From Eremomyces bilateralis CBS 781.70 (Eukaryota), in the NCBI GenBank assembly GCA_010015585.1, contig ML975149.1: a stretch of DNA of 64,000 nucleotides. One strand, 5' to 3'. Under the pieces are notes generated by a model, which saw nothing but the letters and a program-made list of their open reading frames with translations, searched no databases and had not been told where the DNA came from. Made by a program: the position numbers and the translations under genes. This document shows, piece after piece, positions 11,995 through 30,649 of the stretch. Within the stretch, counting starts at the first letter, position 1. Each line of letters opens with the position of its first letter.

Positions 11995-13768
11995 CTAAAT
12001 GTACTCATAGCTTCGGCACAGCTGTCTCAACTTTTTCACCGCAAATCTTTGTTTCCCCAAAGAGATGTCATCATCGCCATCTTGTCGACCATCGATGTCT
12101 TTATGTTCGCCAGAGACATTCAACAAATGTCTAATTATCTCTAGGAATGACGAGCCTGCGGCATGTCTCACTCTTGGCAGATTTCCAGACCTGTCAAACG
12201 CGTCGACAAGAGATGGGACGTCCACATATTGGCCTGCCGATTCTACGATCTTTACCGAAGCCGTCCATGAAGTCAAGTCATCGAAAAGAGCATTCTCAAG
12301 CGTTTCCCAAGTTGCGAGTTCCCACAGCACGCATGCCAAGCCGTACAAGTCAAAAGTCTTCCGAAATGTTATGCGTGCCGCTCTCTTGCCTGCGGATGCC
12401 GGTAGATGTCATGGCTGAGGTCTGAACTTGGTAACTCTGTCATCTTTACCCCGTCGGGGCCATCTGGTCTTGCATATCCGTATCCCACAAGATAAGATGC
12501 AGCATCGAAGACCTCGGAGGTTGAGCCATTGGTTGTCATAAAGACGACGTTTTCAGATCGGATGGCCTTGTGCAACCAGCCAGCAGTGTGGAGCTGGAGC
12601 ACTGCCTCCGCAAGTTCGAAGGCAACTCTATATCTGAATTCCAGCGGAACGTCGCCAAATTCGACCATCAGCTCTCGAAGAGTGAGCAGCTTCCAGGAAG
12701 TTGACGGCAGCGATCTCAGCGAGATCGGTGGTTCATAAACCAAGCCGAAGCACCCGAATTCTTTCCATAGCATGTATCCACAGCAACGGAAACCATGAAA
12801 TGAGTGATCATCCATCCCTTCTAGAAGCAAAGCCAAGCACTGGATTTGCCCCTCAAGGACCTCAAATTGCATTGAATCCGCAGTTCTCCATCCGATCAAG
12901 GAGACATTCTTCATGTACGCAGCGATCTCTATTCCTGCCTTTGGCAGTACTTCTGCCCGAAACCCCGAATACAGCTCAGGCTTCAGCCTGTGCACGAAAG
13001 TTGTGCCTGACTTCAACATCGAAGGGGTCTTGTCCGCAATTTCATCTGGGCGTTTATCGCATCCAGCTATAAGTCGAATGTGTTTGAGCGTCGCTGCTGC
13101 TGTCATGACAGTATTGCTGGCCCCTCCTTCGTTAGTTAGAATCCGCTGAAGCATCTCGACTTCAGAGGGTTCGTGGACCGAGAGATTAGATCTCGCAATA
13201 GTGCCTCTCGTGTTTCCTAGATGAGCTCCCGATCGGCCGAGTCGAGAAGCGCCTCCAGTCTCGAGTTGAGGTCTCTGATTGCTTCGATGACAGCCTTCAC
13301 GCGATATTTCCCTATAGCTGCCCATTTCAAACGTGTAACAACTCCTCGCTGGCCGCTCTGACGACTGGATGTTGTATACTCGGGCTTTAGCTTCATCATA
13401 AGAGTGCTAAATTTCGATTCTGGCTTCGACATTCCATTATCATCCATACGGACCTCCTCTTCCGGAATGTCCAGATTGTATTCCCGTTTCAACTTTTGTG
13501 CGGACGTCAAAAGCGCTTTTTGTTCCGTGAGTATTGACGAAGTGATTTCCCAGTTAAGTCTATCATTTGGAGCCGCGGAGTTGGCCAAGCCTGTCCTTTT
13601 CTCCCATTCCTCAAGGCGAAATTGCTCCCACTGCAGCTTCGAAATGATGTGCTCGCTGTCTTTTGCCATTGTTCTTGCGGTGTAGAAGAGTTGGTATGCT
13701 TCGATGCATCCGTTGAATGTGTGCATTGCAAGACCAACTGCCGAAAGGGCCATTTCAACGCCTGCCAT
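11995..13768 (-). pseudogene. HeLo (prion-inhibition/HET-S N-terminal) domain plus kinase-like pseudokinase protein, disrupted
   Basis: The N-terminus MAGVEMALSAVGLAMHTFNGCIEAYQLF...KLQWEQFRLEEW...RLKWA...IRDLNSRLEALL is HeLo-like. The C-terminal kinase fold has RYRVAFELAEAVLQLHTAGWLHKAIRSENV, YLVGYGYARP, YRHP and DLYGLACVLWELATW. Lesions: in-frame TAG at 13217-13219 and apparent 1-bp deletions near 13168 and 12383. Confidence 0.85.
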
Positions 13769-13944
13769 TTTGGACGCGGTTGCGGGTTGGCGTGGAAAAA
13801 TTGAAAAATGTCTTATGGGACAAAGATGATTGAGATAATGGTGATATGAGATTTGGGTACGGGATATCGAGTATCAGAAGACTCGTTTACAAAGCGTAGA
13901 GGGCAAGTCTATACTCTCTATTACGCAAGGCTCCGGGGCTGTAT

Positions 13945-16900
13945 ATGCAATCATTGTCTCCGAGCGCTCCCATGGGCCTCTGCCATTCTGTTGGTGTCAT
14001 GGAATTGATACCGGAAGTTCAGCCTTGCATCCCAACTCTAGTCTCTGCCCATTTCATGCACCCCATCTTTGCCAATCTTTCCATTTGTTATATCTACTGC
14101 AGCATGCATGCGTCTATTTGCGCAGAGGTGCTTTGTGCCGCGACCCAAGATGGCATTTTGAGTGCCGACGCAAGGCTCGAATTCTCATCACGTGGTCGAG
14201 CCTTCCGGTATACTTACTCCATCCTGCGCCACCTCGGAGTTTTGCATTTGATGGAGCGCTTCATTGCTCTAGAATTGACAGATTTCCATATCCCGTTCGA
14301 CGAGAATACTCTTCCTGACTTGATTCCGGGACCCCTCCGAGCCCCGTTTCTTCACTGTCAAGGGTATGTTTACTCCGAAAAGCATGATGAGACACATCAA
14401 CTTGAAGACGGCGGCGAACACACCAATCTAGATGACGGAGACGGGTATTTCCATTCTGTTGGCATTTTTGGAAGTGGTGGCTTTGGGTGAGTGTAACAAG
14501 GCACTACTACACTGTACACTTCAGCTAATCCTTTAGGTCTGTCGACCGAGTGTGGAGCAAATCGAGCTTGAAAGAGTTTGCTCGAAAGCGGACTCGACGA
14601 GGTCGGGACAAGAACTCAGTCCTCAGAGAGAAGGCAATATGTCAGGAGATTCGAGAGCTCAAGAAACTTTCCCATGAGCACCTGGTGAAGATTTGCGGGT
14701 CCTATTCAGACAGGCGCTACATTGCTTTCATTATGCAACCGGCCGCGGATACTAATTTGGTCGATTTTCTTCAGCAATGTACTCCAGCGGAATATCCTAC
14801 ACTATCTCGATTATTCGGGTGCCTCACAAGTGCCATCCATTACCTGCATGGGAAGTATGTCCGGCATCGCGATATATTCTCCCAGAACGTACTCGTTCAT
14901 AATGGAGAGGTGAAGTTAACCGACTTTGGCAACTCCTACAACTGGTCGACGAGCAACAAGAGGACAACCCGCGACAGGATCCCCATAAATGAGGAATATG
15001 CAGCCCCTGAGGTTGCGCGGGGAATTCTAAAGAACGAATACTCAGATCTTTGGTCCTTGGGGGTGGTGTTCCTTGAAATGGCAACAACGCTACTTGGAAA
15101 AACGAAGGCGGAATTTGACGAGTTTCTACGAGATTACGCCATTAACAAGCGCTCCGATGGTCAATATCTCTGGGCCAATATAGGAGCAGTCCCAATTTGG
15201 TCGGAGAACATTCGAAGTACGAAGAACGACTCATACAATGCACCTCTTCAATGGATTGAGAAGCTGCTGAAAGAAAGCCCACGGAAAAGATTGGATTCAA
15301 AGGCTCTCATGATGGACATCCGACATTCTGGATATATTTGTGACTTTTGTTGTTTGGATTGTAAAGAAACATACGAAGGTGGAGCGTTTGACTACGCAGT
15401 TCCCGGACAGTTTGTGGATGTGGACGTGGGCGAAATTCTTTACCGAACTGAAGCAGTTCAGTACACAACAGCTAGCTACTTCGACGATTTCGATGAGGTC
15501 GATGTATTTCGGGATCCAAGAGATGTCGCCTCTACCGGAAGTGTTGAAGAGTGGCTCACCCAGTTGAGGATTGCGCAGCACCCGAGTAACGATGCACTGC
15601 CAATGCTAGCTATCCCAGAGGACGCCGTGCTTCACGGCTGGGCTCAACATACTCCAGTGGTGAGTCGAATTGAAGAACCAACCTATACTACTGAACGTGT
15701 ACACCGAACTACGATCAAAGACACAGGACGTGGTTTTCTCATCGCCAGCGAAACCGACTCATCTGATGAAAAGGATAGTCTCTGTGACATCACTGAAGCA
15801 GCAGAGGATGAGTGGCCACAGACAAACGGAATTTACAATATACGAGCAGTCTCTAACAATTCTGACACAGAGAGTGCATTGGACAGCGATTCGTGTGTTG
15901 AAGTTCGGACTGATGGGAATGAGCTGACGGCGCCTGCAATAAGTCCAGCCAAGGACACCATTACAGATCTAATCGGAGGACACATCGAGGAGCACTCCCA
16001 CGATACATCGGCAAATACTGAAAAACATCCGGATTCGGGGGCTGCGGCACTAGAAGCTAACAGCCGCACCAAGACCTCTTGTTGTGGAGCAGTGATAGAG
16101 GCAGGGGAAGCCAGTTCGTTGGAAGCGGGAGATCAATCACGCCATACTGCTGAGAGGTCTCATCAACAGCTACGTCGCCAGATTCAAGAGCTCAACCAGA
16201 GACTTCGTGATAACCGAAATCTTGCATCTGCAGATAGGCCAGCCAACGACCAGAGTCTTCCAAGGAAGGCTGACGAGCCCGAACTTGCAGAGCCGCGGGA
16301 TGAGGTTAGACAGGGGGAGAGCACAAATCAAGGAGCAGAAGAATCCTGTATCAAGGAAAAAGTAAATCAGTGTCGGGAAGATGACACAGCGACAAGTTTC
16401 TCAGTCCCAGGACCACGGCATTCAGGCAGGACGTACAAGACTCTGTCAGAGAGGCCACGTCGAAAACTTCCCCCAAAGTTTGATGCCAGCAAGTACATCG
16501 AAGCTGCCACCGTATCCAATTTAACGGTCGCTACCTCTGCGTTAGGCCAAACTGCACGAGTCAAAAGGAATTTCACCTCCTATATGTTGAGAAACCACGA
16601 ACTCTTGGAAGAATTTTGCAGAAAGAGCCAACCTGGATCCGTCAAAGCCCTCATGAAGAGCGGGATCAGACCAGCTAATAGACCCCGGGCTCTCCATTTC
16701 GCCGTGGCTGGTAAAACCAAAGCACATTCTGCCTGTGTCAAGTACATGTTGGAGTACGGCGCCAATGCAAATTACATAGATCGACACGGACTCACTCCCC
16801 TACACTGGGCAATCGACCGAGACCCCTGTGAAGGATATGCTGAAACGATCCATAAGTTGCTCGATGCTAATGCAAATCCCAGCACCAAGGACGGCAATGG

Positions 16901-17483
16901 AGCGACTCCACTGCAAAAGGTGTTTCAAAATGGAGCAAGCGCTCTTTCGAACGCGGAAAAACGGGCTCTAGCCTTCCTCCTCAAGTCAGCAGTAGGAGAT
17001 GGGGTCAATGTTGATCTTCCAATTCCTGGAACCCTTGATACGCCGCTGCACTTGGCTATCCGGCGGAAAGACTACCACGCCACTTCGATGCTCTTGTACA
17101 CAGGTGCCAATGTGAATGCGATCAATTCCTCCGGCATGACACCACTGCTCATTGCTGCCAATCAATGGGGGGGACAACTCACTGCGGAGCAGGAGCTAAT
17201 GCTCACAACGCTGTTAAGCGCAGAGGATATCTCTCTCGATAATAGTGGCGGCGCAAAGGGCCGCACCGCCCTGCTGCAAGCGGTTGCAGTTGGCGCATCT
17301 GCAGCCGTTGAATGGCTCATAAGCGAGAATGCGGATCTCCAACGGAAGGATAAGGATGGCAGTGACGCATTAGCTATTGCTAGAGATTGTTATCCGCGGT
17401 ATTCGGAGGAACAGAAGGCGATACTCAGCCTGCTAGTAGATACACTTCAGGATCGATTATGGTCCTGCCGTCACTATTCCTGA
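13945..17483 (+). CDS. Ser/Thr protein kinase with a long acidic linker and C-terminal ankyrin repeats (start uncertain: 13945 or 14104)
   Basis: GSGGFG, then intron 14487-14536 (GTGAGT..GCTAAT..TAG), then SVDRV..FARK, HRDIFSQN, DFG, YAAPE, DLWSLG. The C-terminus has ankyrin motifs ALHFAV, GLTPLHWA, GATPLQ, DTPLHLA, GMTPLLIA and GRTALLQAV. Confidence 0.85.
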
Positions 17484-18127
17484 TGGCTGAAATGTACTGT
17501 TCGCATTGAAAGGGAGTCCGGATAGAGTGCGCAGGACATGGTTTGATTGACTTCATCCTTACGGTAGTTATTAACACAACAACAAAGACCCAAAAAGGAC
17601 GGTGGTTTGGACATTATTCTAATACGCTATCCATTGAAAGTACTTATAACAGTCGTACTCCGTAAAACGGGACCGGTCATCTCAGTCGGTTATTAGCACT
17701 TCTCGTGACTGGGGGGAACGGCGCACTTTTGCGTCTATTGGACAGGTATAACTATTGAGTTAATAATATTGTACCTAACTTGTACGGTCTTGGTCTTGTT
17801 GAGCACTTCAGAGCAGAAGCGGGCTCTGGGTCATGACATCAATACACCCTATCCAAAAGAATCCTTTATTACAAGCAGCAGGAATCAGGCTTAAACTCGT
17901 ATCCGCTGGCGATAGTAAGGATTACCTAACCTAAGAAGGCAAGCCTGAAAGATCATCCAGTCACACTTGAATTAGCTTGGTCATCAACGTCGTATAGGCG
18001 ATCTATATAAATAAAGTCCACCAGTGGTCGAGGAAGAAATATTTTAGCATACTAGAGCATCCAGGTTTAAAGATCTACAGCATAGTTGGCGACTATTAGA
18101 GCATTGTTTGATTTAAGACTTATCACC

Positions 18128-19012
18128 ATGTCCCACCATCACTACACAGACACACGGCGCTCGTCGTCCAAACCCACTTCCGTACCCCTCGACGCTACCT
18201 ATAGCACCCGCCTACAATCCCTTCACCAGCCCGGAAACCCTTTAATCCTCACCAACATCTACGACCTCTCCTCCCTTAACGCGGTTTTGTCACTCAACAC
18301 TCCCTCCACCACCCCAGTTCAAGCCATCGCAACCGCCAGCTTCGCATTTGCCGCCCAACTAGGCATCCCCGACGAAGCCCTCACCCTCGACCAGAACCTC
18401 GCCGCCACCGCCGCCATCTCCGCCCGCGTTCGCGAAGCCAACCTCCCGCTGACTGTCGACCTCCAAGACGGCTATGGTGAGCGCATCACGGAAGCCGTCC
18501 GACGCGCTGTGGAGCTCGGTGCCGCGGGCGCGAACATCGAGGATAGCATTCCAAGCGCCGGGTTCGGTCGTGGCGTGGAGGGCAGCTTGTATCCGGTGGA
18601 ATTGCAAGTGCAGCGGCTGCGCGGGGCGCGGGAGGCGGCGCGACGGGCGGGGAGTCCGGATTTCGTGATCAATGCGCGGACGGATGTGTTTCGACTGGAC
18701 GAGCCGCCGGAGGAGGCGTTGGAGGAGGCGGTTAGGAGGGGGAAAGCGTATTTGGCAGCGGGGGCGACGACGGTGTTTGTGTGGGGTGGGAGGCGCGGGG
18801 TTCGGACAGACGAGGTGATGACCCTTGTGGATGCGCTGAAGGGGAGGGTGGCTGTGAAGTTGGGGGACGGGCCGAATTCTTTGACGACAAAAGAGTTGGC
18901 GCATATTGGTGTCGCGAGGGTTAGTGTGGGGCCGAGTTTGTGGTTGATGGCGATGAAGGCTGTAACGGAGGGCGCGAGAAGGATCCTGGAGGGGGGGAGA
19001 TTAAGCGGTTGA
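18128..19012 (+). CDS. PEP mutase/isocitrate lyase superfamily protein (carboxyphosphonoenolpyruvate mutase-like)
   Basis: Motifs NIYD..S, IATASFA, PLTVDLQDGYG, GANIED, FVINARTD, YLAAGATTVFVWG and GVARVSVGP; TATA-like TATATAAATA at ~18005. Confidence 0.88.
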   Translation: MSHHHYTDTRRSSSKPTSVPLDATYSTRLQSLHQPGNPLILTNIYDLSSLNAVLSLNTPSTTPVQAIATASFAFAAQLGIPDEALTLDQNLAATAAISARVREANLPLTVDLQDGYGERITEAVRRAVELGAAGANIEDSIPSAGFGRGVEGSLYPVELQVQRLRGAREAARRAGSPDFVINARTDVFRLDEPPEEALEEAVRRGKAYLAAGATTVFVWGGRRGVRTDEVMTLVDALKGRVAVKLGDGPNSLTTKELAHIGVARVSVGPSLWLMAMKAVTEGARRILEGGRLSG

Positions 19013-19238: not shown

Positions 19239-20120
19239 TCATTTACTAGCAGATGGCTTTTCGCCGTCACCTGCGTTCTCTTTCCTTCTCTGGACTACAT
19301 CCCAGTTATACACTCGAGCGGTAGCGACCTCCATCGTCTAGATGCGATAAGTCAGCTTGCCTGTTCGGTATATTCAATTGCGGGTTTGGGACAAACCGTT
19401 ATCTGCTCTCGTAAGAAGTCCAAATCCTCCTCGCAGTTCGCCACGGATTGTTTCGCGGTTGCTAGCTTGCTCTCGAGAAGAGAAATTGCCTCGGAAACAG
19501 GGTAGGCAAGCATGACATTGGCCTAACAGTAGTCAGCCAACTATACCGACGCCTATATTTGAAAAGGCATACCCCTAGCCAGATGTATACTTCGTCGGTT
19601 GGCGGAATGTTGGCCTTCGCGAACAAGGTGTCGTTAAGCTCGAATGTCGTCTCTATCGGCTCCGAGTCGGCCTACATTTGCAACTCTTGATCAGCTTGAT
19701 GCTCCCATGAGATGCACCTTTTAACACTTACCCCTCGAGAGCCCAAAAATTGCGCAGCATCCAGAGACTTTTGTATCTCCGGTACCTTGACCTGCAATCC
19801 TGCCAGCCGCCGCTGTGTACTGGATTGCATGAACTGGTACTTCCTGTATCAAACCGAATAAGCTGGCGTAAAGAGTAAATTTCCTGCTCGTCCACGTACG
19901 AGATCATCTCCTGGAAATTCCGGAGCGTCTGCTCCACTTCTGCTCGAGATCGAACATATTCCTCAACATTGTCGACGAACGGTGCGTAAGGGATCCCTCG
20001 AGGGTTGGTGGAGGCATCGCTGGTGCTATAGGAAAGACATGTTTAGTTCAATACGGTTCAAGTATGGGAGTTTTCAAGAAGAGTGAGTGCGTACCTGGAT
20101 CCTTTTGCGACGGTGGCCAT
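19239..20120 (-). CDS. PAC10: Prefoldin subunit 3 (Pac10/Gim2/VBP1), 6 exons
   Basis: Spliced translation MATVAKGSS/TSDASTNPRGIPYAPFVDNVEEYV...FQEMIS/KYQFMQ.../...ETTFELNDTLFAKANIPPTDEVYIWLG/ANVMLAYP...EDLDFLREQIT/TMEVATARVYNWDV. The ORF track misses it because the exons are short. Confidence 0.93.
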
Positions 20121-21102: not shown

Positions 21103-23851
21103 TCACAAAGTAAGTTCCATGGTCATAACTCTTCCAGATGCATATCCGAAAGCAACAATGCCCCCATAAACAGCACTACGGCTTGGCCGATACTCGGGAG
21201 GAAGCCAAAGGATCCTCTCTGTATGGCTACTTACCCAGTGGTCGTTGACAAAGATAGAAGATGGATGTCGTAGACGGGTCACACCTATACCATCAGAGAG
21301 AGGTGATAAAATAGGCAAGAATCCACGGTCCGTCTGGAGAGAGGTACCGTCGTCGGAGAAAGAGAGAGCGTAGACGATGTTTCCAATGTCGAGCGTCTGC
21401 TGCAGCGCGCCCGACCCGGCGTCCCACAGCTTGACCGTCNNNNNNNNNNNNNNNNNNNNNNNNNNNNNNNNNNNNNNNNNNNNNNNNNNNNNNNNNNNNN
21501 NNNNNNNNNNNNNNNNNNNNNNNNNNNNNNNNNNNNNNNNNNNNNNNNNNNNNNNNNNNNNNNNNNNNNNNNNNNNNCCGAATGGCCCTCGAGCGTCTGC
21601 TGCAGCGCGCCCGACCCGGCGTCCCACAGCTTGACCGTCGTGTCCGCCGATGCCGACGCCAGCGTCCTGCCGTCCGGCGCGAAGGCCACGGCGCAGACCC
21701 GGCCCGAATGGCCCTCGAGCGTCTGCTGCAGCGCGCCCGACCCGGCGTCCCACAGCTTGACCGTCGTGTCCGCCGATGCCGTCGCCAGCGTCTTGCCGTC
21801 CGGCGCGAAGGCCACGGCGCAGACCCAGCCCGAATGGCCCTCGAGCGTCTGTATTACCGCATTCCATTTCTCCTCGACCCTTGGCAAATTTCGTATCCAT
21901 CTAGGTATACAGTTTACGAACTGCTTTCTTATTATACTTATTGTCGGTGCGAATACGAGGGCACTACAGTACGTCTGAAGAGGAGCCTGCTCGATAGCTG
22001 GCCGATTATAGAGGACGAACCGCTTCGCATCGTGGATAAAGCTTAAAATGCCAGGGCAATTACCAAACTAGCCGAACTGTTAGCGAAAGCACTTGACGTG
22101 CTAGAAGTATACTAACGGAAGTAAATAGCTCTAAAGACGCGATAGCATGAGCTCCTTCCGACACCTTCCCCATCCATCCAAGAGCCTCGAGCCAGTGAAG
22201 AAGATGCTCCTGTAAGAATTGATGCACTTGACCATTGTCGCAAAGTCGAGCACCGCTTTTCTGGAGGTGCTGGATCCAGTACAGACATGCGTACTGGACT
22301 TCAGGAGGAAGACTTTGTTCAACTCGTCTTCTCTCGACATTGGCTACAAGCATGCCGGGGGCATCTACGCAACAGACATCTTGCTTAAGTGATGACGACA
22401 TAAGCTGGATACAGCTGTTGGTTAACACTTGGTGGGCTTCCTTCTCGTCTACCCAGAAATTCGGATCTCCGCATCTCTTTTTATCGAGAAGAAAGTCGCG
22501 AAACGAAGGGTGATGCAGGCGAAGTGGATATATGTCGACCTTGGGGACGTCTAGAATCGCATAAAGATCCCTGAGCACCTGATCGATCTTTTGCTTGGTG
22601 ATATTAAGCAGCCTGTGAAGCGAGCTGGCAGAGAGCGGAGAGAAGAGAACAATGATGCCTCCAAGAATGTGCCTTTGCATGCTATACGATGCTTCCTTCT
22701 CCTTTGCCGAGTAACCTGGCCGGATAGATTTCTTTAGGACGGTAGTATAGAGCTTATTAAGGTGTACTTCTGGATGCTCTTCTGGTGCAGGAATAGAGGC
22801 ACTGCCTTCTAGCAAAGTTTGCACTCTTTCGTCTACGAGATAACCTTCTTGAATGAACCGACAAGCGGTTGCAGCCCAAATGAACAATCCCCCTGCAATC
22901 TGGATCAGGGTTTTGATAATCTCTTCGCCTGGCCAGGAGTCATCCAGAGAGTGCTCCTGTCCAATAAGTTTAAGATTATACTCGAAGAAAACAGAGATGT
23001 CGTGATCTACGATTAAGGGTGATATGCTGTGAAGTACAAAATCCTGGAGATTCGCATTCGGTAGCTGACGGAATCCATATCGGATTGGAATCTCAGGTCG
23101 GCTTGTTAGTAAGACTCGTAGTCGAACCGTCTTTAACAATCGAGCTTCAGCCAAGAGGTGTATAATAATCCGGATGTTATTATCACCGTCGCACTCATCG
23201 AGCGCATCAACGATAAGTATGTACGAGGACTGGCTACCGTTTTCACCTAGCTTTAATAGTGGACCTAGGATAAGCTGCTGCCACTGGTCACGGAGGGACT
23301 GACTCGTAATGTCGCGGCGCTCTCTAATGGCATCGCAAATGTACTGTTGGAGAGAGGGTATGTTGTTCGCCAGCTGCCACGCAATGCTCGTGATGAACTT
23401 GCCTGCATGGTTGACATCCCCACCGCCGCGCGAGAAGAAGAAGCTGGCTCCGAGATGCTTCTCATCGAAGCACCTGCGGGCGACAGTGCGCGCAATTGTT
23501 GACTTGCCCGTGCCGGCCAAGCCGTTCAACCAGAAAATAGAGCGCCCATCTTGCCCGTCAGCCCAGTCGTATATCTCTTGGAGGAGGTCGACGCGGGTAT
23601 CGGGAAGGCAGGTTGGGTCGTGTTGTCGCTGGTATGTATTGAACGGCGCGTCCTTTGCGGTAGGGAGGGAGTTGAGCACATCGTTCAAGTCTAGATTGCC
23701 AGTCAGCTTCCTGCTGCTTTGAGGCCATAGCCAGGTAAGCAGCCTCACTTTCGCTGCTCCCAAAGGTCACAGATCCATGGATAGTGCCAGCGACAACCAG
23801 CGAATTCTTCTTGGCGGACACACCGCTAATGAGTTGAGTGTTGTCTGACAT
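21103..23851 (-). CDS. NWD2/HET-E-like NLR: N-terminal amyloid-like motif, NACHT, WD40 repeats (3 exons; WD array interrupted by an N gap)
   Basis: Exon 1 is 23851-23749; intron 23748-23691 (GTGAGG..GCTGAC..TAG). Motifs CLPDTRVDLL, P-loop GLAGTGKST, ASFFFSRG, Walker B ILIVDALDEC, GGLFIWAAT, HPSFRDFL, YACLYW and HLLHWLEAL. After a second intron: HDAKRF...APLQTYCSALVFAP, the QTLEGHS...VKLWD repeats, and the HET-E-type tail LWLPPEYRP. Confidence 0.92.
21385..21851 (-). repeat. Tandem 126-bp near-identical WD40-coding repeats containing a 138-N assembly gap (21440-21577)
   Basis: Units QTLEGHSGWVCAVAFAPDGKTLATASADTTVKLWDAGSGALQ and QTLEGHSGRVCAVAFAPDGRTLASASADTTVKLWDAGSGALQ, with partial units on both sides of the gap. 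Confidence 0.92.
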
Positions 23852-24779
23852 GAGCTTAGAGTAGCAACGCTAGGTTTTGCTAGGTGCCGGTTGTTGCTCT
23901 CTTCTGGCACATGTTGCCGTGTATATGGGCATGCGAACACCTGGGAGTGAGTTCAGGTCTGTACGCAGATGAGGTTCATCCTCAATCCTCAACTAGCGAA
24001 TGCATTCGTAAGGCTCGCCAATTAACACTCCTGCCTTGCCGCTGTCCACTGCTGGAGAGCAGCTGTCAGCTGCAAAGTAGGGCGGAACTAACGCCAAGAG
24101 CATTTGTCGACACTGTCGAAAGCGAGCATCTTAACTCCCTTCCTATTCCGGCAGCCAACGGGCGCTGTACGCCCTCTGAATTTGAAGCAATGTCTTATAC
24201 CACTCTGGTTGACTATATTTATAATATCAAACGCGAAAATAGAAATGGAAATATTATTCACCATCTTTCGTCAAAGTAGGAACTCTTAATTGTGGAGTTC
24301 CTAGACTGGCCACGGCCGGTAACCCTGCTGCCCTGTCATCCTCTATAATTATCCCTATTACTCTCTAAGCCGGCTTGGTTTTGGCACGCGATACTTATAG
24401 ACACGTTCTTCCGGTCTTCGAATGCCTCGAGGTCGCCGCGGCCGCCCCTTCTGTCCCTTCTACTGCGGCAGAGGCTAGTCGCAGCTGGGAGCGGAGTCGT
24501 GTCGGTCATGCGCGAGCGAGAAGGGGAGAGCGATTGGGTGACAGGGGCCCGTTAGGAAAAGGCGCAAGGAAAGGCGAGGAGGGCGAAGGAGGTGAAGGGT
24601 GGGGACGTGGACGGAGAGGGGGTTTTGCAATTCTTTCGAAATGTTGTAGATGGGGAGAGTTTAGAGACAATAACGAAGATAGAGAAGTCCAAGTAAGGGA
24701 AGAGACACCCAAAACCAGAATCGGCAAGGGACCACCATGTCGAATATTTTAAAAAGTCATAGCTTGCATCGTCTATCAT

Positions 24780-26400
24780 TCCTTACACTTAGTTAATAAT
24801 ACCAATCCAAGGCTTTTCCGAATCTCAATTCCAATATGTACTTCCCCGACACAATGCGGTAGTGCAAGGCAGCTATAGACCCCCTCCTGCTTCGCCTCGA
24901 CGGACTCCAGTAGTCGGAAGCGATTCATCAACGTGACGAGAGCGCGATGCTTCACCGGCCCCTGGCGCTGGACTTCCTTAAGTAATCATGGCCCATTTCC
25001 CGTCACACTCCTGCTCGAGACGTTGCAGCAAAGCATCCTCCTCTGGAGTAAAGGCAACGCGAACCCTCCTCGGTTTCGGGTTTGGCCTTTTATGCTTTAG
25101 CATGAAGTCCGAGTCAAAGTCATCACCGCTACTGTCTTCGAGTGCAGAGACAGTTCTAGATAATTGACGTTACCTCTGTACTGATGAAGTGGCCGGCACC
25201 GCAGCCACCGCTTCCACGCGGTCAAGGACATCCGAACTATTTCCACGAGGGCCTGCTGGTTCCTCAATGTCTCGGATTGCGTCGGACCGTTGCTACGGAT
25301 CGCTTCTAGTAACTCCGGCAGGCTCTAAGCCAGGGATCGGTCTTGCGAAGCAGGTGCATGGGGGGGACTACGGCCGTTCTTCGGTGAGGGGGAGTTCGGT
25401 AGGCGAGTAATCCTAGGCTCTAGCTCTAGCGAGGGCGAAGCGGGTAGCGAAGGGGACGGAAGACGGTTAACGGAGGGCAAGGGAGGCAGCGTCGCTTCCT
25501 GTTCGACGCATAGGTTTAGCTGAATAGAAGAAAAAATGGCGACTCTATCCCCTTACCTAGGTAATCAGGGGAGAGGCCGGCGTAGACTGCGCCGGAAGAC
25601 GCCCAGGGGAAGGCATCTCGAGACCGGAATGCTGCACGAGAATATGATCTTTAGTGGCGAGGCGGAGTTCCTTGCGGATGAAGTCCTCGACTGCGCGTAG
25701 ATCTGGGCAGGAGATGCGGAGGAAGGTTGCACCGTCGAGGAGCTCCGAGACGTAGACCGTCACGTCCTCTTCCTTGTTTAGAAAGCGAGTGTTGAGGAGC
25801 TGCTGGACCGGGGGGAGGTAGGAAGTCAGGTTGTGAAGGTAGAAGAGAGAGGAAGATATACCATGGATCGAACAGGCATTCTCGCCTCTATTATAAATAT
25901 TCACCGTCGTCAGCGATCCCCTCTATGATTATAATAGCCAGCCTTTGTGCCCGCTTTGCCGGTCTCTTAACAGATGGAAATATAGCTCGGCGCCAGCCCC
26001 TACGTCCTCGCCCCTTCGTCGGCGGATTATGGTTGATCAGAGGGAATCGAGTGGCCGCCGTTTCCTCTAAATTATGGCCGCTTCTTAATGGCTTTACCAA
26101 TACAAAGGAGCACCCTATATCCTGCGTTTATGTGTTCATATAAGAAGCGCCGCCGTCGGTCGATGTCCTCTGTGATTGTGGATAGCCAGTCGTTGTACCC
26201 GCTGTCCCGGTCTCTTGACGATGGATGTGTGTGTGACTCGGCTCCAACCCCTTATCCTCGCCTCATAGTCGACGGGCCATGGCTATTTAAGTAGAGAAGG
26301 GAACGAGTGGCCGTCGTTCCTGGAGCCGCGACCGCTTCGATAGCTTGAATCGACACGACGAGGAGCAGGATTCGAGAGCGGGAAGCGTATCTTGGTTCAT
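24780..26400 (-). pseudogene. Degenerate gene with a C-terminal Myb/SANT-like repeat
   Basis: The minus strand at ~25075-24900 reads RRVRVAFTPEEDALLQRLEQECDGKWAMIT, then after a frameshift KEVQRQGPVKHRALVTLMNRFRLL. Upstream are an acidic and Pro-rich segment, a GTAAGG..GCTAAA..CAG intron and several stops. Boundaries approximate. Confidence 0.5.
25902..26322. repeat. Imperfect ~170-bp direct duplication (25902-26067 and 26150-26322)
   Basis: CCTCTATGATTATAATAGCCAGCC..CCGGTCTCTTAAC..CGAGTGGCCGCCG versus CCTCTGTGATTGTGGATAGCCAGTC..CCGGTCTCTTGAC..CGAGTGGCCGTCG. Confidence 0.75.
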
Positions 26401-26875: not shown

Positions 26876-29805
26876 TCAATAGTGCGTCTGGGAGCCAAAT
26901 TGGAAATCAGGAACCATCAAATCACCCATCGACTCGAAGGTCATACTCGGAGGGAACACCTGGTCGAAGGCCGACTAGAACACAATATCAGCATCTCAGG
27001 TCCGCAATCGTACTCGATGTCAAGCGAACTCACCCAATCAATGTCGAAACCTCCCTGACCCGCATTCTCCGGCGCAACAGGTAGTCTGTTAGGCTGCGGT
27101 TCCGGTTCCTCATCCGCTATTGCCATCCCATCTTCCGCAGCAGCACTCGGTCCGAACAGCCCATCTTCAGGACTCGAACTGCCTTGCATTATTATCGCGG
27201 GCACATATACCGCTTCGCCATTCGCAATGCCACCAAATGACATGTCTCCAAGCGCACCGAAATTGGCGGGCGGCAGATTTGCAGGAGGCGGTATAATGTC
27301 TGGTGGATTGGACTCCGACATATCGCTTCCCCAAGGTCCGGCATTAAACCCCCTCGGGAACTTTTCCAAAGGCCCCCTTCCGACGGGAGCATGCTGCGGA
27401 CCAGCTATTTGCTGCATGTTCATCGGACTTGCTTGCTGATTCATAGCAGCCCCCGATTGAAGGTATGATATATGTGCATCAAAATTCCTTTTATGAGCTG
27501 CCGAGTTTGGGGGCAAGGTTTCCGGTGACGCCTCTTCCGAGAAATTTGGAGCGCCGGGCTTTCGTGGCGCTACATGCTGAAGCATGGTCGTAGGTGTGCG
27601 GACCTTTCGCAAAGTTTGGAATATATCAGCGCGACGGGAGAGCTCGAGGAGGATCTGCTTCGATTTCTCGAGCGGCGACACGCTGGGGGAGAGCTCGAAA
27701 ACGTAGTCGAGAGATTTCCAAATGCGGCGTTCATGATAATAAGGCTCGGCAGTATATAGCTCGGAATACAGAAGCAGCGCAACGTGGTACTGTTGAAAGG
27801 TTCCTAGGGATCGTGCTCAGCAGTTGAAGAATACTTCCTTTGAAGAGCTGAAGAAACTTACCGCCATACCATGCCCAGGTTTTCAATAATGGTGTGGTAT
27901 CGATCTGAATGGCAGCTTCTAGTTGCCCAAGCCCTGAATTGATCAACAACTGCCGTAACCGATCTGGCATCGTGAACAGCTGATTTCCAGAGTAACGATG
28001 TAAGACGTTAATATACATCCTCAATGTGAGGATTTTATACGCAAGGTACGCGAAGTACTGAAGCGGTTTCGTCCGGTCAAACAAATGCATGTACTTCTTC
28101 TCCGACTTCGTGAGGAAATTTTGGATCTTTCGAACCACCGTCGTGAGGTTCGTTCGCTTCTGTTCCAATTTAGTCTGCTCGACCCAAATCCGGCGATGCA
28201 TCTGATTGCACTCCATGCGCATGAGAGTCAGCGTCATATCCGTCCAGCGATCTTCATCTTGCGTCGGCGGATTGCGCGACTCCAAGTCCACGTCATCCAC
28301 ATTCAGTGGGAGTCTTGTGTCATAATCTTCCCGTCGTATTTGAGGGCGCGGTCCCACAGCATCAGCAGTTCGGATGTCCAAGAAACAGATTTGGTGCCAG
28401 ATGAGACGTCGCACATGTAATTGAACAGGTACCAGGCCGTAGAGGGAGCCATCTCGATGCAACCCCATCCCCTCTGCGATCCGAATTGCAGTTCCCGTGA
28501 GCGCCGAATGTGCTCTTGAGATCTCACTTCTGCACATCGGAATGAGATACATTACAAAGGCCTGTAGGGTTTCCAGTTTGGTAGTGCGTAAGAAATGCGC
28601 CCTGGACAGCATCGTTTCTGTGCCTTCTCGGAAGTTGTCCACCAGCTGCGATTTCACGACCCCGTACTCGGATAGAACAGTCTCGCTGTCCATGCTAAGG
28701 ATCGCGGAGAATAAGGTAGCTAGAACCAGGGCAGCAAACGACGCGGGCCCTTCTATGCCACCCTGGAGATGCTCCCAGAAGGTTTTGTACTGTCTTTCGA
28801 ACGAAGGGCGATGTACAATGCGAGCCACGGGGTGGACAGCTTTCCAATACTGCTGCATCAGTTGATCGGCGGCATCCTTCGACGGCATATATTGCATCAC
28901 CGCCGTAATTAATGGCTCGGGTGCGAAGAAGAAACTGGCTGCTGGAGCAACAAAATCAGGGCCTGGCCCGCAAGACATTTGCGACGAGAGGAATCCTGGC
29001 GGAGTGGAGGATGTCTCCGGCTCGCCATGTTCTGCCATGACCTCCTTAATAACGTATTTGAGCTATAGTGCATTAGCACGACCGCAATAATAACCATCAT
29101 AAGTTGCAAAGTAAATACCTCATCTGCCAATTTTGGCCTGGCCAGCCCACCGATTCTTTCGGTGATCCTCATCTTCCCAAGCTGGATTCCCAAATCCATT
29201 AGATCATCGTCCGCATCTTCGTAGTACGCGACATCATTCGTAATGTACGGATGCGCCTCTAAGTCCCGTTCGTCCTCCGGCACGTCCTCCTCATCAAACT
29301 CATCCTCCTCTTCGTCCCCCACCCCAGGACCGACATCACCGCTCCTATTCCGCTCTACCGACGTCCGCTGCCTAGCTCTTGTCACGTCCTCTTCCAGCGT
29401 CCGCTCCAAACTCCCCATCTTCTCCTTGATCTTCGCCAGCTTCTGCTGCGCGGCAGGGTCTGGCGTCGACGCCATGAACAGGCATTGGCGCTTAGCCCTC
29501 GTGCAGTTGCCGCATGGGCTGGATTTATCGCACTTCAGCTTGCGGCGCCGGCATTCCAGGCAGCTGGTAATAAGGCGGTTGCGGCGACGAATACGGGGAG
29601 GAATGTGCGACAGCGCTGGAGAGGGTGCTGCAGGCGGGGATATTGATGAATTGGGTTGGCTGCTTGCGGCTCTCTGTGGTAGTTGCCATGCTTGCTGGCT
29701 ACTCCCTGCTGGCTCTCTGCTCGTCAATCCTGGGATAGGAGGCGAACGAGGCTGCTTGGAGTCCTCATTCGTATAGCCAAGGTTTCCGGTGAACTCATCC
29801 ATCAT
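26876..29805 (-). CDS. Zn(II)2Cys6 transcription factor with fungal-specific TF (middle homology) domain, multi-exon
   Basis: CLECRRRKLKCDKSSPCGNCTRAKRQC, then HPVARIVHRPSFE, AIRIAEGMGLHRDG, RRLIWHQICFLD and DTRLPLNVDD. The last exon follows GGFDIDW and ends at TGA 26876. Confidence 0.92.
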
Positions 29806-30649
29806 TGATGTGGACCAAAAGAGGTAATGATAGAGTGCTCCAATTGGGGGGCAATTGCCTTACGTCCGTACGGAAGAAACACGAGATACGGGCGCAAGAC
29901 TTTGAAGGTGAAAAGGAAACCAATACCTCTTAAAGCCGCATATATCATGCGCCATTATACATGTGATTGCTAGATTAATTCAGTAGGTGACGCGTCGATC
30001 ACTCGTGGTAACCTCGCTTGGCATCCGAGCCTGGCGATGCAAGGCAGCAACCAAGAGATGCTTGACTGAACTACCAATGGATTAACTTAACTAACTAAGT
30101 TAGTTAACTTATTAATGAGTTAGTTACATTGTGTGGTAACTAAGTTAGTAATGTTGGTAAGATACCCCCCAGTTTAGTGAGGCGCCCAGCTCCTTAGTCT
30201 TGTCTCGTCGCAGTTCTTTGAAGCTGATTTGACCATAATAGTAATTACGATGACAGGATTGTAACGGTTCGCAACGTGATGGTTATGGTGAGGCACACAA
30301 CAAGCTGGGGTAAATGCGGAGGCCTAATTATCTTTCGTATCATTTGGCCTCCTCCCCGGCAGGGACACCACGTATATTAGGCATGGCTGACGAGTAATAC
30401 TCTATGTTTGAAAATCTGACTCCGAGGAAAAGTACCTAATAATGGGGATTATGGCTGGGATCCCTTACTCTATGGACTTGAAACGGAGGATGATATGGAG
30501 TTACTCAAAGCATCCATTCCGAGACCTATATGATATAATAAAGTAGCGGCTTGGAGTGTCCGGAATACCTTATTATACAAACATATTTCATGGACAATCA
30601 AAGTGTGTGCCAAACGATGTTTTTACATTTCCAATGGCTCGGGTCAAAT

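What the first reader, a model, noticed from the sequence alone, without database searches (positions are those of the whole stretch)
23749..23851. NLR first exon encodes a HET-s-like amyloid signalling motif, with no cognate effector next to it
Seen: the NLR has no globular N-terminal effector. A separate 103-nt exon gives MSDNTQLISGVSAKKNSLVVAGTIHGSVTFGSSE, spliced in frame onto the NACHT. By eye ISGVSAKKNSLVVAGTIHGSVTF aligns without gaps to HET-s repeat 2 plus its tail, VETVVGKGESRVLIGNEYGGKGF (recalled sequence), sharing V-x-[AG]-K-x-x-S-x-V-x-x-G-x-x-[HY]-G-x-x-x-F. Known: Podospora NWD2 uses such an N-terminal motif to template the prion fold of HET-S, and the effector gene is usually adjacent. 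Inference: this is an HRAM-type or new-variant motif. No gene with a matching two-repeat C-terminus is visible nearby; the only HeLo gene, about 7 kb away, lacks one. The receptor is therefore orphaned or signals in trans.
Basis: partly seen in the sequence, partly recalled or inferred. Interest (0 to 1): 0.8.

Follow-up and report, generated by a model that had tools for sequence, protein, structure and literature searches.

The report
HRAM2 amyloid motif on fungal NLR
A fungal immune-type receptor gene starts with a short exon that encodes a known kind of amyloid signalling tag (the HRAM2 branch of the HET-s family), and its partner killer protein is not encoded nearby, which is common for such receptors.

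Summary
On the minus strand, 23749-23851 is a 103-nt first exon encoding exactly the quoted 34 residues. A 58-nt GT..CTGAC..AG intron joins it in frame to a NACHT-WD40 NLR. One contig of a public run of a close relative joins 23690 directly to 23749.

The motif is not new. Residues 4-24 share 11 of 21 residues with published NLR-side "r0" motifs of the HRAM2 subfamily (Q at position 3, signature Q-x-ISGVSA; supplement of PMC4518210). Controls reach at most 8/21 among 64,224 six-frame 21-mers of the window. Among 133,132 21-mers of 150 NLR homologues, the only other 11/21 is another NLR N-terminus and the next best is 9/21.

No second HRAM-like copy and no small HeLo, HeLo-like, SesA or PNP_UDP effector lies in the 64 kb. 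The only HeLo gene continues into a long kinase-like tail.

Whether the receptor is orphaned or signals in trans cannot be decided, because no whole genome is held. The literature already reports non-adjacent pairs and an excess of receptor-side motifs. Verdict: real, a new member of a known kind, modest interest.

The parts
23749..23851 (-). Exon 1 of the NLR: ATG plus 34 codons plus 1 base; the whole N-terminal extension ahead of the NACHT module
   Evidence: Sequence and translation. In-frame stop 18 nt upstream. Covered by contigs of run X1.
23780..23842 (-). 21-residue HRAM2-type r0 core, residues 4-24 (NTQLISGVSAKKNSLVVAGTI). HRAM position = residue number minus 3, giving Q3, I5, V8, A10, V16, A18, G19
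   Evidence: 11/21 identical to two published HRAM2 r0 motifs. Null maximum is 8/21 in the window and 9/21 in homologues apart from P0051. It is the only match in the window to three HRAM regexes.
23750..23779 (-). Tail after the core, residues 25-34 (HGSVTFGSSE): a short G-x-V-x-F-G strand with an aromatic residue
   Evidence: Conserved as HGTVNFGTSD in P0020 and P0151. Similar tails occur in P0051 (NITIG), P0069 and P0123.
23691..23748 (-). Intron 1, 58 nt, GTGAGG...CTGAC...TAG
   Evidence: The loose end at 23749 equals + strand 23678-23690, so one contig lacks these 58 nt.
22117..23690 (-). Exon 2: NACHT/NPHP3_N NTPase module with Walker A GLAGTGKST, followed by helical domains
   Evidence: Pfam NPHP3_N E=4.1e-32 and NACHT E=1.6e-09. 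22,547 relatives at E<=0.001.
22068..22116 (-). Intron 2, 49 nt, GTTAGT...CTAAC...TAG
   Evidence: Sequence; the frames join. One search lists a 49-nt skip here (22060|22110), placed 7 nt away from the predicted ends, so the support covers the length only.
21103..22067 (-). Exon 3: WD40 repeats and C-terminus with stop. Interrupted by an assembly gap of 138 N at 21440-21577, so the repeat number is unknown
   Evidence: Pfam WD40 E=6.8e-28. N run. Frames on both sides of the gap.

Best explanation
The gene at 21103-23851 (minus strand) is a NACHT-WD40 NOD-like receptor. It has no globular effector domain. Its only N-terminal module is a single copy of a HET-s-related amyloid motif of the HRAM2 subfamily (an 'r0' motif), with a short aromatic tail.

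By analogy with NWD2/HET-S (inferred, not shown here), ligand-driven oligomerisation of the NACHT-WD40 body would bring several r0 copies together. They would fold into a beta-solenoid-like amyloid nucleus. This nucleus would template the two-repeat HRAM2 region at the C-terminus of a small HeLo or HeLo-like pore-forming protein and trigger cell death.

That effector is not encoded within 21 kb on one side or 40 kb on the other. If it exists, it is unlinked and the signal passes in trans, possibly shared with other receptors carrying the same motif class.
For: Gene model: exon, intron and frame are. One contig of run X1 lacks the intron. The spliced model, built in a script, aligns colinearly from the motif into the NACHT with annotated proteins P0051, P0020 and P0151.

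Family features as given in the main text of PMC4518210: G at position 19, hydrophobic residues at 5, 8, 10, 16 and 18 (here I, V, A, V, A), Q at position 3 (HRAM2), polar arches at 6-7 and 11-14, and hydrophobic residues at both 17 and 21.

[quoted passage not shown] All 8 occurrences of ISGV or ISGI in that table are in the r0 column.

Controls:
- Of 64,224 stop-free six-frame 21-mers of the window, the best besides the motif reaches 8/21 (7 windows).
- Of 133,132 21-mers in 150 NLR homologues, only the N-terminus of P0051 reaches 11/21, and the next best is 9/21 (1 window).

The loose HRAM regex hits once in the window, at this site. In the 150 homologues it hits 5 times: one at an N-terminus (P0051) and four internal.

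The motif starts at residue 4-6, where HRAM motifs usually sit (positions 5-9; PMC9815663).

About 20 of the 46 short N-termini printed from the homologue set look like amyloid signalling motifs (by eye only).
Against: - No profile-based test was possible. Pfam HET-s_218-289 and all other Pfam models gave no hit at E<=10 for the peptide. phmmer against PDB chains gave none. The published HRAM HMMs are held in a format I could not read.
- Position 15, usually R or K, is L here. The relative's contigs read Q (23799 A>T).
- No cognate effector was found, and no whole genome is held, so the trans partner is an assumption.
- Amyloid formation, templating and cell death are inferred from the family, not tested.
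- The splice evidence is one contig with 13 letters on the far side, from a run whose RNA nature is a guess.
- Assignment to HRAM2 rests on the rule stated in the paper's text (Q at position 3, no Q at 16 or 18) and on similarity to r0 motifs whose effectors have Q at position 3. The table has no subfamily column.
Confidence: 0.6

Rival explanations
1. True orphan: the genome no longer has (or never had) an effector with a matching HRAM2 region. The r0 motif persists as a relic, or serves only to stabilise the receptor's own oligomer.
For: - No partner lies in 64 kb.
- NLR-side motifs greatly outnumber effector-side ones in published surveys: 131 NLRs against 43 effectors for the main HRAM motif (PMC9815663 Table 1).
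[quoted passage not shown] I saw only the heading in the outline.
- Position 15 is L instead of the usual R/K or Q.
Against: - The exon is intact and appears in a spliced contig.
- The core and tail are conserved in Apiospora and Aspergillus proteins whose NACHT regions are 46-61% identical to this one. This argues for continued selection.
- Genome-wide co-occurrence of non-adjacent pairs is documented.
Confidence: 0.22
2. A linked partner exists but was missed. It could lie just beyond the window, be too diverged or split by an intron across the repeats, or be hidden by assembly problems.
For: - The scans were ungapped or regex-based on continuous frames.
- Only frames of 85 aa or more were sent to Pfam, with a few shorter ones. 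Frames above coordinate 46,600 were covered only for those of 150 aa or more that I picked.
- There is an assembly gap inside the NLR.
Against: - The window extends beyond the 20-kb neighbourhood used in PMC9815663 on both sides.
- The immediate neighbours are identified or transcribed genes of other kinds: prefoldin, PEP mutase, a spliced gene of unknown family, and a Zn2Cys6 factor.
- The only 'pair' of general HRAM-core patterns lies antisense to the MAM33 gene.
Confidence: 0.08
3. Chance resemblance: a low-complexity, disordered N-terminal leader with no amyloid function.
For: - No HMM-based hit.
- The protein atlas gave only scores under 0.9.
- The 6/21 identity to HET-s repeat 2 is within the range that random frames reach against the six r0 motifs (341 of 64,224 windows at 6-8/21).
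Against: - 11/21 identity to published r0 motifs, against a null maximum of 8-9/21.
- Exact N-terminal placement.
- Conservation in P0051, P0020 and P0151.
- All defining HRAM positions but one are met.
Confidence: 0.05

Closest known systems
HRAM2 receptor/effector pairs (Daskalov, Dyrka & Saupe 2015, PMC4518210). The review PMC5485727 names the Penicillium roqueforti pair W6Q0M1/W6PZN6 as the HRAM2 example (figure legend seen)
   Same: - A single 21-residue r0 at the very N-terminus of a NACHT NLR.
- Q at position 3, the signature Q-x-ISGV-x-A, hydrophobic residues at 16 and 18, and G at 19.
- 10-11/21 identical to the Penicillium and Cochliobolus r0 motifs in the supplementary table.
   Different: - In those table rows an r0 is given because the adjacent gene encodes an NLR. 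Here no effector lies within the window.
- Position 15 is L rather than K, R or Q.
- The tail HGSVTFGSSE cannot be compared, because the table gives only 21 residues of each r0.
NWD2/HET-S of Podospora anserina (HRAM1, the experimentally established paradigm)
   Same: - Same receptor architecture: amyloid motif, then NACHT, then WD40.
- Same pattern of core positions.
- The proposed mechanism is taken from this system (PMC4518210 main text; PMC5485727 passages).
   Different: - Only 6/21 identity to HET-s repeat 2 and 3/21 to the r0 listed in the HET-s row (sequences, hand count).
- Q instead of N at position 3.
- The genes are adjacent in Podospora, not here.
- No hit to Pfam PF11558.
HRAM3/NLR12 receptors that signal to PNP_UDP effectors, often unlinked (Wojciechowski et al. 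2022, PMC9815663)
   Same: Precedent for many receptors per effector and for non-adjacent partners: mean ratio 5.7:1.
   Different: HRAM3 has H at position 3 and single-copy motifs on PNP_UDP proteins. This motif has Q at position 3, and no PNP_UDP domain was found in the window.
Annotated hypothetical proteins P0020 and P0151 (Apiospora saccharicola) and P0051 (Aspergillus aurantiobrunneus)
   Same: - The NACHT regions of P0020 and P0051 are 61% and 46% identical to this gene's.
- N-termini align colinearly with this one.
- P0051 has a full Q-x-ISGISA r0. P0020 and P0151 share the second half of the core and the HG[ST]V-x-FG[ST]S[DE] tail.
   Different: - The first half of the r0 is absent from the annotated start of P0020 and P0151 (MLHIEH...), perhaps because the start was mis-called.
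- Their genomic neighbours could not be inspected.

Membership tests
HRAM (HET-s-related amyloid motif), any subfamily | Invariant glycine at position 19 of a 21-residue unit | tested here: met
   G22 = position 19. Definition from the main text of PMC4518210.
HRAM (HET-s-related amyloid motif), any subfamily | Hydrophobic (or T at 10) residues at positions 5, 8, 10, 16 and 18 | tested here: met
   I8, V11, A13, V19, A21 (definition). Two of the five are the small residue alanine.
HRAM (HET-s-related amyloid motif), any subfamily | Preference for R or K at position 15 | tested here: not met
   L18 in the window; Q in two contigs of run X1 (23799 A>T). It is a preference, not a rule: published HRAM2 r0 motifs have Q, K or R there.
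HRAM (HET-s-related amyloid motif), any subfamily | On receptors: a single copy at the extreme N-terminus of an NLR (NACHT), with few acidic residues | tested here: met
   The core starts at residue 4. NACHT/NPHP3_N and WD40 lie downstream. No D or E within the 21 residues. Typical positions 5-9 (PMC9815663).
HRAM (HET-s-related amyloid motif), any subfamily | Cognate effector (HeLo, HeLo-like or SesA) with two repeats of the same subfamily at its C-terminus, usually encoded by the adjacent gene | tested here: not met
   None in the 64-kb window. The rest of the genome could not be tested. Adjacency is 'common but not systematic': 98 of 155.
HRAM (HET-s-related amyloid motif), any subfamily | Forms a beta-solenoid amyloid and templates the effector | not testable with these tools
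   Needs fibril, prion and cross-seeding assays.
HRAM2 subfamily | Q at position 3, without Q at position 16 (HRAM5) or 18 (HRAM4) | tested here: met
   Q6 = position 3, V at 16, A at 18. Rule from the main text of PMC4518210.
HRAM2 subfamily | Sequence similarity to r0 motifs of known Q-3 pairs that is beyond chance | tested here: met
   11/21 to two r0 motifs and 8-10/21 to four more (hand counts). Null maxima are 8/21 and 9/21.
Pfam HET-s_218-289 (PF11558) | Hit to the Pfam model | tested here: not met
   0 families at E<=10 for the 34-residue peptide. Only 38 of 155 double-repeat HRAM proteins match this model according to PMC4518210.
PP motif | G-hydrophobic-Q-hydrophobic-G pattern | tested here: not met
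   The pattern as worded in PMC9815663 is absent from the 34 residues (read by eye).
PUASM | FxGxGxQxxGxGxF pattern, associated with PNP_UDP | tested here: not met
   The pattern from PMC9815663 is absent from the peptide. No PNP_UDP domain in the window.
Sigma motif | Hit to a sigma-type model | tested here: inconclusive
   No Pfam family of any kind matched the peptide at E<=10. I did not retrieve a written definition of sigma. Published sigma motifs sit mostly at positions 50-99, whereas this protein has only 34 residues before the NACHT preamble.

The most novel reading that the evidence does not exclude
The receptor belongs to a small lineage seen so far in this window, in Apiospora (P0020, P0151) and in part in P0051, P0069 and P0123. 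In this lineage the HRAM2 r0 carries its own conserved extra strand, G-[ST]-V-x-F-G-x-S-[DE]. This would be a receptor-side counterpart of the aromatic C-terminal loop that in HET-s sits on the effector. The lineage would work as one of several unlinked receptors converging on a single distant effector, forming a many-to-one amyloid signalling hub. Alternatively it would act with no HRAM effector at all, the extended motif being enough for a self-propagating signal.
Probability: 0.15. Interest if true: 0.5.

Novelty: new member of a known kind. Interest (0 to 1): 0.25.

Why it matters
This adds one clean, transcript-supported example of an HRAM2-type amyloid receptor whose partner is not linked. 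HRAM2 turned up in only 5 papers in the one library search I ran (4 listed, one of them an unrelated coffee study). In what I read of the relevant ones I saw no experimental test of HRAM2, so a well-defined 34-residue exon is a convenient test object. The general points (amyloid motifs on NLR N-termini, five HRAM subfamilies, non-adjacent partners) are already published. The finding confirms existing knowledge and does not open a new question.

Tried and rejected
- **Whole genome:** none is held, so no proteome-wide search for the effector was possible.
- **Pfam and PDB:** Pfam at E<=10 and phmmer against PDB chains with the 34-residue peptide gave no hits.
- **Word-indexed protein searches:**
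  - A 40-residue read-through of exon 1 (34 real residues plus 6 intron-encoded), lengths 'longer': 0 hits among 17 candidates.
  - P0020 residues 1-60: only itself and P0151.
  - P0051 residues 1-40: only itself.
  - This tool is too insensitive for short motifs, so these blanks say little.
- **ESM Atlas with the peptide:** best score 0.84, below the level that means anything.
- **Complex prediction, four copies of the 34-residue peptide:** the verdict was 'no answer' (score 0.04 against a mark of 0.32) and the alignment was not used. This is no evidence either way.
- **The look-up of sequencing runs, kind rna:** no holder on record as RNA was listed. The single run X1 is 'RNA? (a guess)'.
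- **Supplements of PMC9815663:** searching for ISGVSA, ISGISA, HGSVTF, HGTVNF and ISGVNA gave 0 occurrences. Two of 11 files were not searched, and the .fa and .hmm files cannot be read here.
- **HeLo gene as partner:** rejected. The frame 13220-13873 continues into a 345-residue frame with kinase-like motifs and no terminal repeats. A single general HRAM-core pattern at about 13106 in its linker shares 3/21 residues with the r0 (hand count). It is one of 45 such pattern hits in the window, so I treat it as chance.
- **Intron 2:** the 49-nt skip is placed 7 nt from the predicted splice sites, so I count it as support for the length only.
Full report
**What is there.** The feature lies on the minus strand. 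An in-frame stop lies 18 nt upstream.

The next 58 nt (23748-23691) begin GTGAGG, contain CTGAC and end TAG. Removing them puts the exon in frame with a long reading frame that matches NPHP3_N (E=4.1e-32) and NACHT (E=1.6e-09). A second intron of 49 nt (22116-22068, GTTAGT..CTAAC..TAG) leads into WD40 repeats (E=6.8e-28). An assembly gap of 138 N at 21440-21577 interrupts these repeats. The frame ends with a stop at 21103.

The gene is therefore a NACHT-WD40 NLR. Its whole N-terminal extension is 34 residues long.

**Transcript support.** No whole genome is held. One public run, X1, holds part of the stretch. It is kept as contigs, and its RNA nature is given only as a guess.

When the run was laid on 22000-26000, one contig lying on exon 1 carried 13 further letters before 23749. 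These letters, ACATCGTTCAAGT, are exactly + strand 23678-23690. That contig therefore joins 23690 to 23749 and lacks the 58 nt. The run also shows CT..AC joints in the neighbouring minus-strand gene, for example 25497|25556 in a 570-nt contig with no differences. So it contains spliced RNA from a very close relative.

This is one contig with a short overhang. It is good evidence for the splice but not a full transcript model. Two contigs read T for A at 23799, which changes codon 18 from L to Q.

**What the motif is.** Profile and sequence searches with the peptide alone gave nothing: Pfam at E<=10, PDB chains, a word-indexed protein search and the ESM Atlas.

The literature was decisive. [quoted passage not shown]
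- an invariant G at position 19;
- hydrophobic residues at 5, 8, 10, 16 and 18;
- a preferred R or K at 15;
- position 3 as N (HRAM1), Q (HRAM2) or H (HRAM3), with Q at 18 or 16 marking HRAM4 and HRAM5.

With position = residue number minus 3, the window peptide has Q3, I5, V8, A10, L15, V16, A18 and G19. It has polar arches at 6-7 and 11-14. Positions 17 and 21 are both hydrophobic, a pairing the paper reports as co-varying. Every listed feature is met except the charge at position 15.

The paper's supplementary table 2 lists the NLR-side r0 motif for effectors that have an adjacent NLR. Eight r0 motifs contain ISGV or ISGI, and all eight occurrences are in the r0 column. Their effectors have Q at position 3 in both repeats. 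My hand counts against the window's 21 residues:

| r0 motif (row in the table) | Identical residues |
|---|---|
| RQQDISGVSAQNHSQVFAGHA (Coclu2_33136) | 11/21 |
| ITQNISGVSAESGGKVFAGYV (Pengl1_430165) | 11/21 |
| Four further r0 motifs | 8-10/21 |

The review PMC5485727 (passages only) names a Penicillium roqueforti pair as the HRAM2 example. This is consistent with the Penicillium rows of the table.

**Is it more than chance?** In one search I compared every stop-free 21-mer with six of these r0 motifs.
- Of 64,224 six-frame 21-mers of the window, the NLR N-terminus scores 11 and the next best score 8 (7 windows).
- Of 133,132 21-mers in the 150 best NLR homologues, only the N-terminus of P0051 reaches 11. 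One window reaches 9.

A loose HRAM regex ([QNH] at 3, aliphatic at 5 and 8, hydrophobic at 16 and 18, G at 19) hits the window once, at this site. It hits the 150 homologues five times: one at the N-terminus of P0051 and four internal.

It gives only 6/21 plus G and F in the tail, a level that random frames reach. The r0 listed in the HET-s row of the table gives 3/21. The motif is therefore HRAM2-like, not HET-s-like in the narrow sense.

**Relatives.** An exhaustive phmmer search with exon 2 found 22,547 proteins at E<=0.001, with a best identity of 62%. I printed the N-termini of the 46 hits whose match starts at residue 12-100. These came from 67 rows that I copied by hand out of the 150. 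The regex and identity scans used all 150.

By eye, about 20 of the 46 carry short G- and hydrophobic-patterned motifs of the kinds described for fungal NLRs. This clade commonly uses amyloid-type N-termini.

P0051 (Aspergillus aurantiobrunneus) has a full Q-x-ISGISA r0. P0020 and P0151 (Apiospora saccharicola) share the second half of the core and the tail HG[ST]V-x-FG[ST]S[DE]. The spliced model, built by a script from window coordinates, aligns colinearly with all three from the motif into the NACHT.

**The missing partner.** No second copy was found in the window by any of four scans:
- An ungapped BLOSUM62 scan of all frames with the 28-residue motif gave a best other score of 28. Twenty shuffled motifs gave best scores of 22-38.
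- Three HRAM regexes found only the NLR site.
- A general HRAM-core pattern gave 45 single hits and one 'pair'. That pair lies antisense to the MAM33 gene.
- Pfam on 28 frames plus 121 further frames found no HeLo-like, SesA, PNP_UDP, patatin or SesB domain. These covered all frames of 85 aa or more up to coordinate 46,600, and above that only the frames of 150 aa or more that I picked.

The one HeLo domain (13220-13873, E=3.2e-28) continues into a 345-residue frame with kinase-like motifs and no terminal repeats.

The NLR's neighbours are prefoldin (about 19350-20040), PEP mutase (18086-19012), a spliced gene of unknown family (about 24900-26000) and a Zn2Cys6 factor (26941-29859).

**How unusual is that?** Not very.
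- In PMC4518210, 98 of 155 HRAM effectors had an adjacent NLR. Clustering is 'common but not systematic'.
- In PMC9815663 (sections 19 and 24 read), the main HRAM motif was found on 131 NLRs, with only 16 neighbour hits and 43 effectors.
- That paper has a section on suspected signalling between non-adjacent genes. It reports a mean receptor-to-effector ratio of 5.7:1 for HRAM3.

**Mechanism.** Shown here: the gene model, the motif and its family, and the lack of a linked partner.

Inferred from NWD2/HET-S: oligomerisation of the NLR brings r0 copies together, they adopt a beta-solenoid-like fold, and this templates an HRAM2 two-repeat tail on an unlinked HeLo-type protein. I put 0.6 on this reading, 0.22 on a true orphan, 0.08 on a missed linked partner and 0.05 on chance.

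**Verdict.** The finding is a new member of a known kind, of modest interest. The open point is whether the partner is unlinked or absent, and that needs the whole genome.

Noticed in passing
window 12372-13873 (-): A HeLo domain (Pfam E=3.2e-28) is followed, after an apparent intron, by a 345-residue frame with degenerate kinase-like motifs (HKAIRSEN, GYGYARP). This frame matches no Pfam family at E<=0.01 and no PDB chain at E<=1. The layout of a pore-forming domain plus a pseudokinase recalls MLKL (a recalled comparison).
   Followed up: partly
window 21578-21900 (-) and N run 21440-21577: The two WD40 units visible before the gap are 39/42 identical (hand count on the output), and the assembly breaks inside the array. 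This fits the highly conserved, concertedly evolving repeats described for fungal NLRs (PMC5485727 passage). The repeat number is unknown.
   Followed up: partly
window 22395-22944 versus 25173-25800: In run X1 a contig over the NLR body differs at 39 of 550 bases, while a contig over the neighbouring gene is identical over 570 bases. The NLR is either strongly polymorphic between strains or has a close paralogue.
   Followed up: no
window 23799: Two contigs of X1 read T for A. This changes codon 18 from L to Q, which is HRAM position 15. Published HRAM2 r0 motifs have Q, K or R there.
   Followed up: partly
window about 24900-26000 (-): A transcribed gene immediately upstream of the NLR has three CT..AC joints (25085|25173, 25497|25556, and 25799 or 25802|25862). 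None of the four frames tested has a Pfam match.
   Followed up: partly
window 14529-17483 (+): A 984-residue frame with a protein kinase domain followed by ankyrin repeats, transcribed divergently from the HeLo gene.
   Followed up: no
window about 13044-13106 (-): The stretch SNTVMTAAATLKHIRLIAGCD in the HeLo gene's linker fits the general HRAM core pattern, with R at 15 and G at 19. It is single and internal, and shares 3/21 residues with the NLR motif. 45 such pattern hits occur in the window, so it is probably chance.
   Followed up: partly
proteins P0003, P0008, P0022, P0026, P0031, P0032, P0039, P0045, P0077, P0119, P0138: Close NLR homologues carry other short N-terminal motifs. One type has x-H-h-G-[ND]-x-Y; another has IAIQAG. 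By eye these look like other HRAM subfamilies. The same NACHT clade seems to have swapped amyloid motif classes repeatedly.
   Followed up: no
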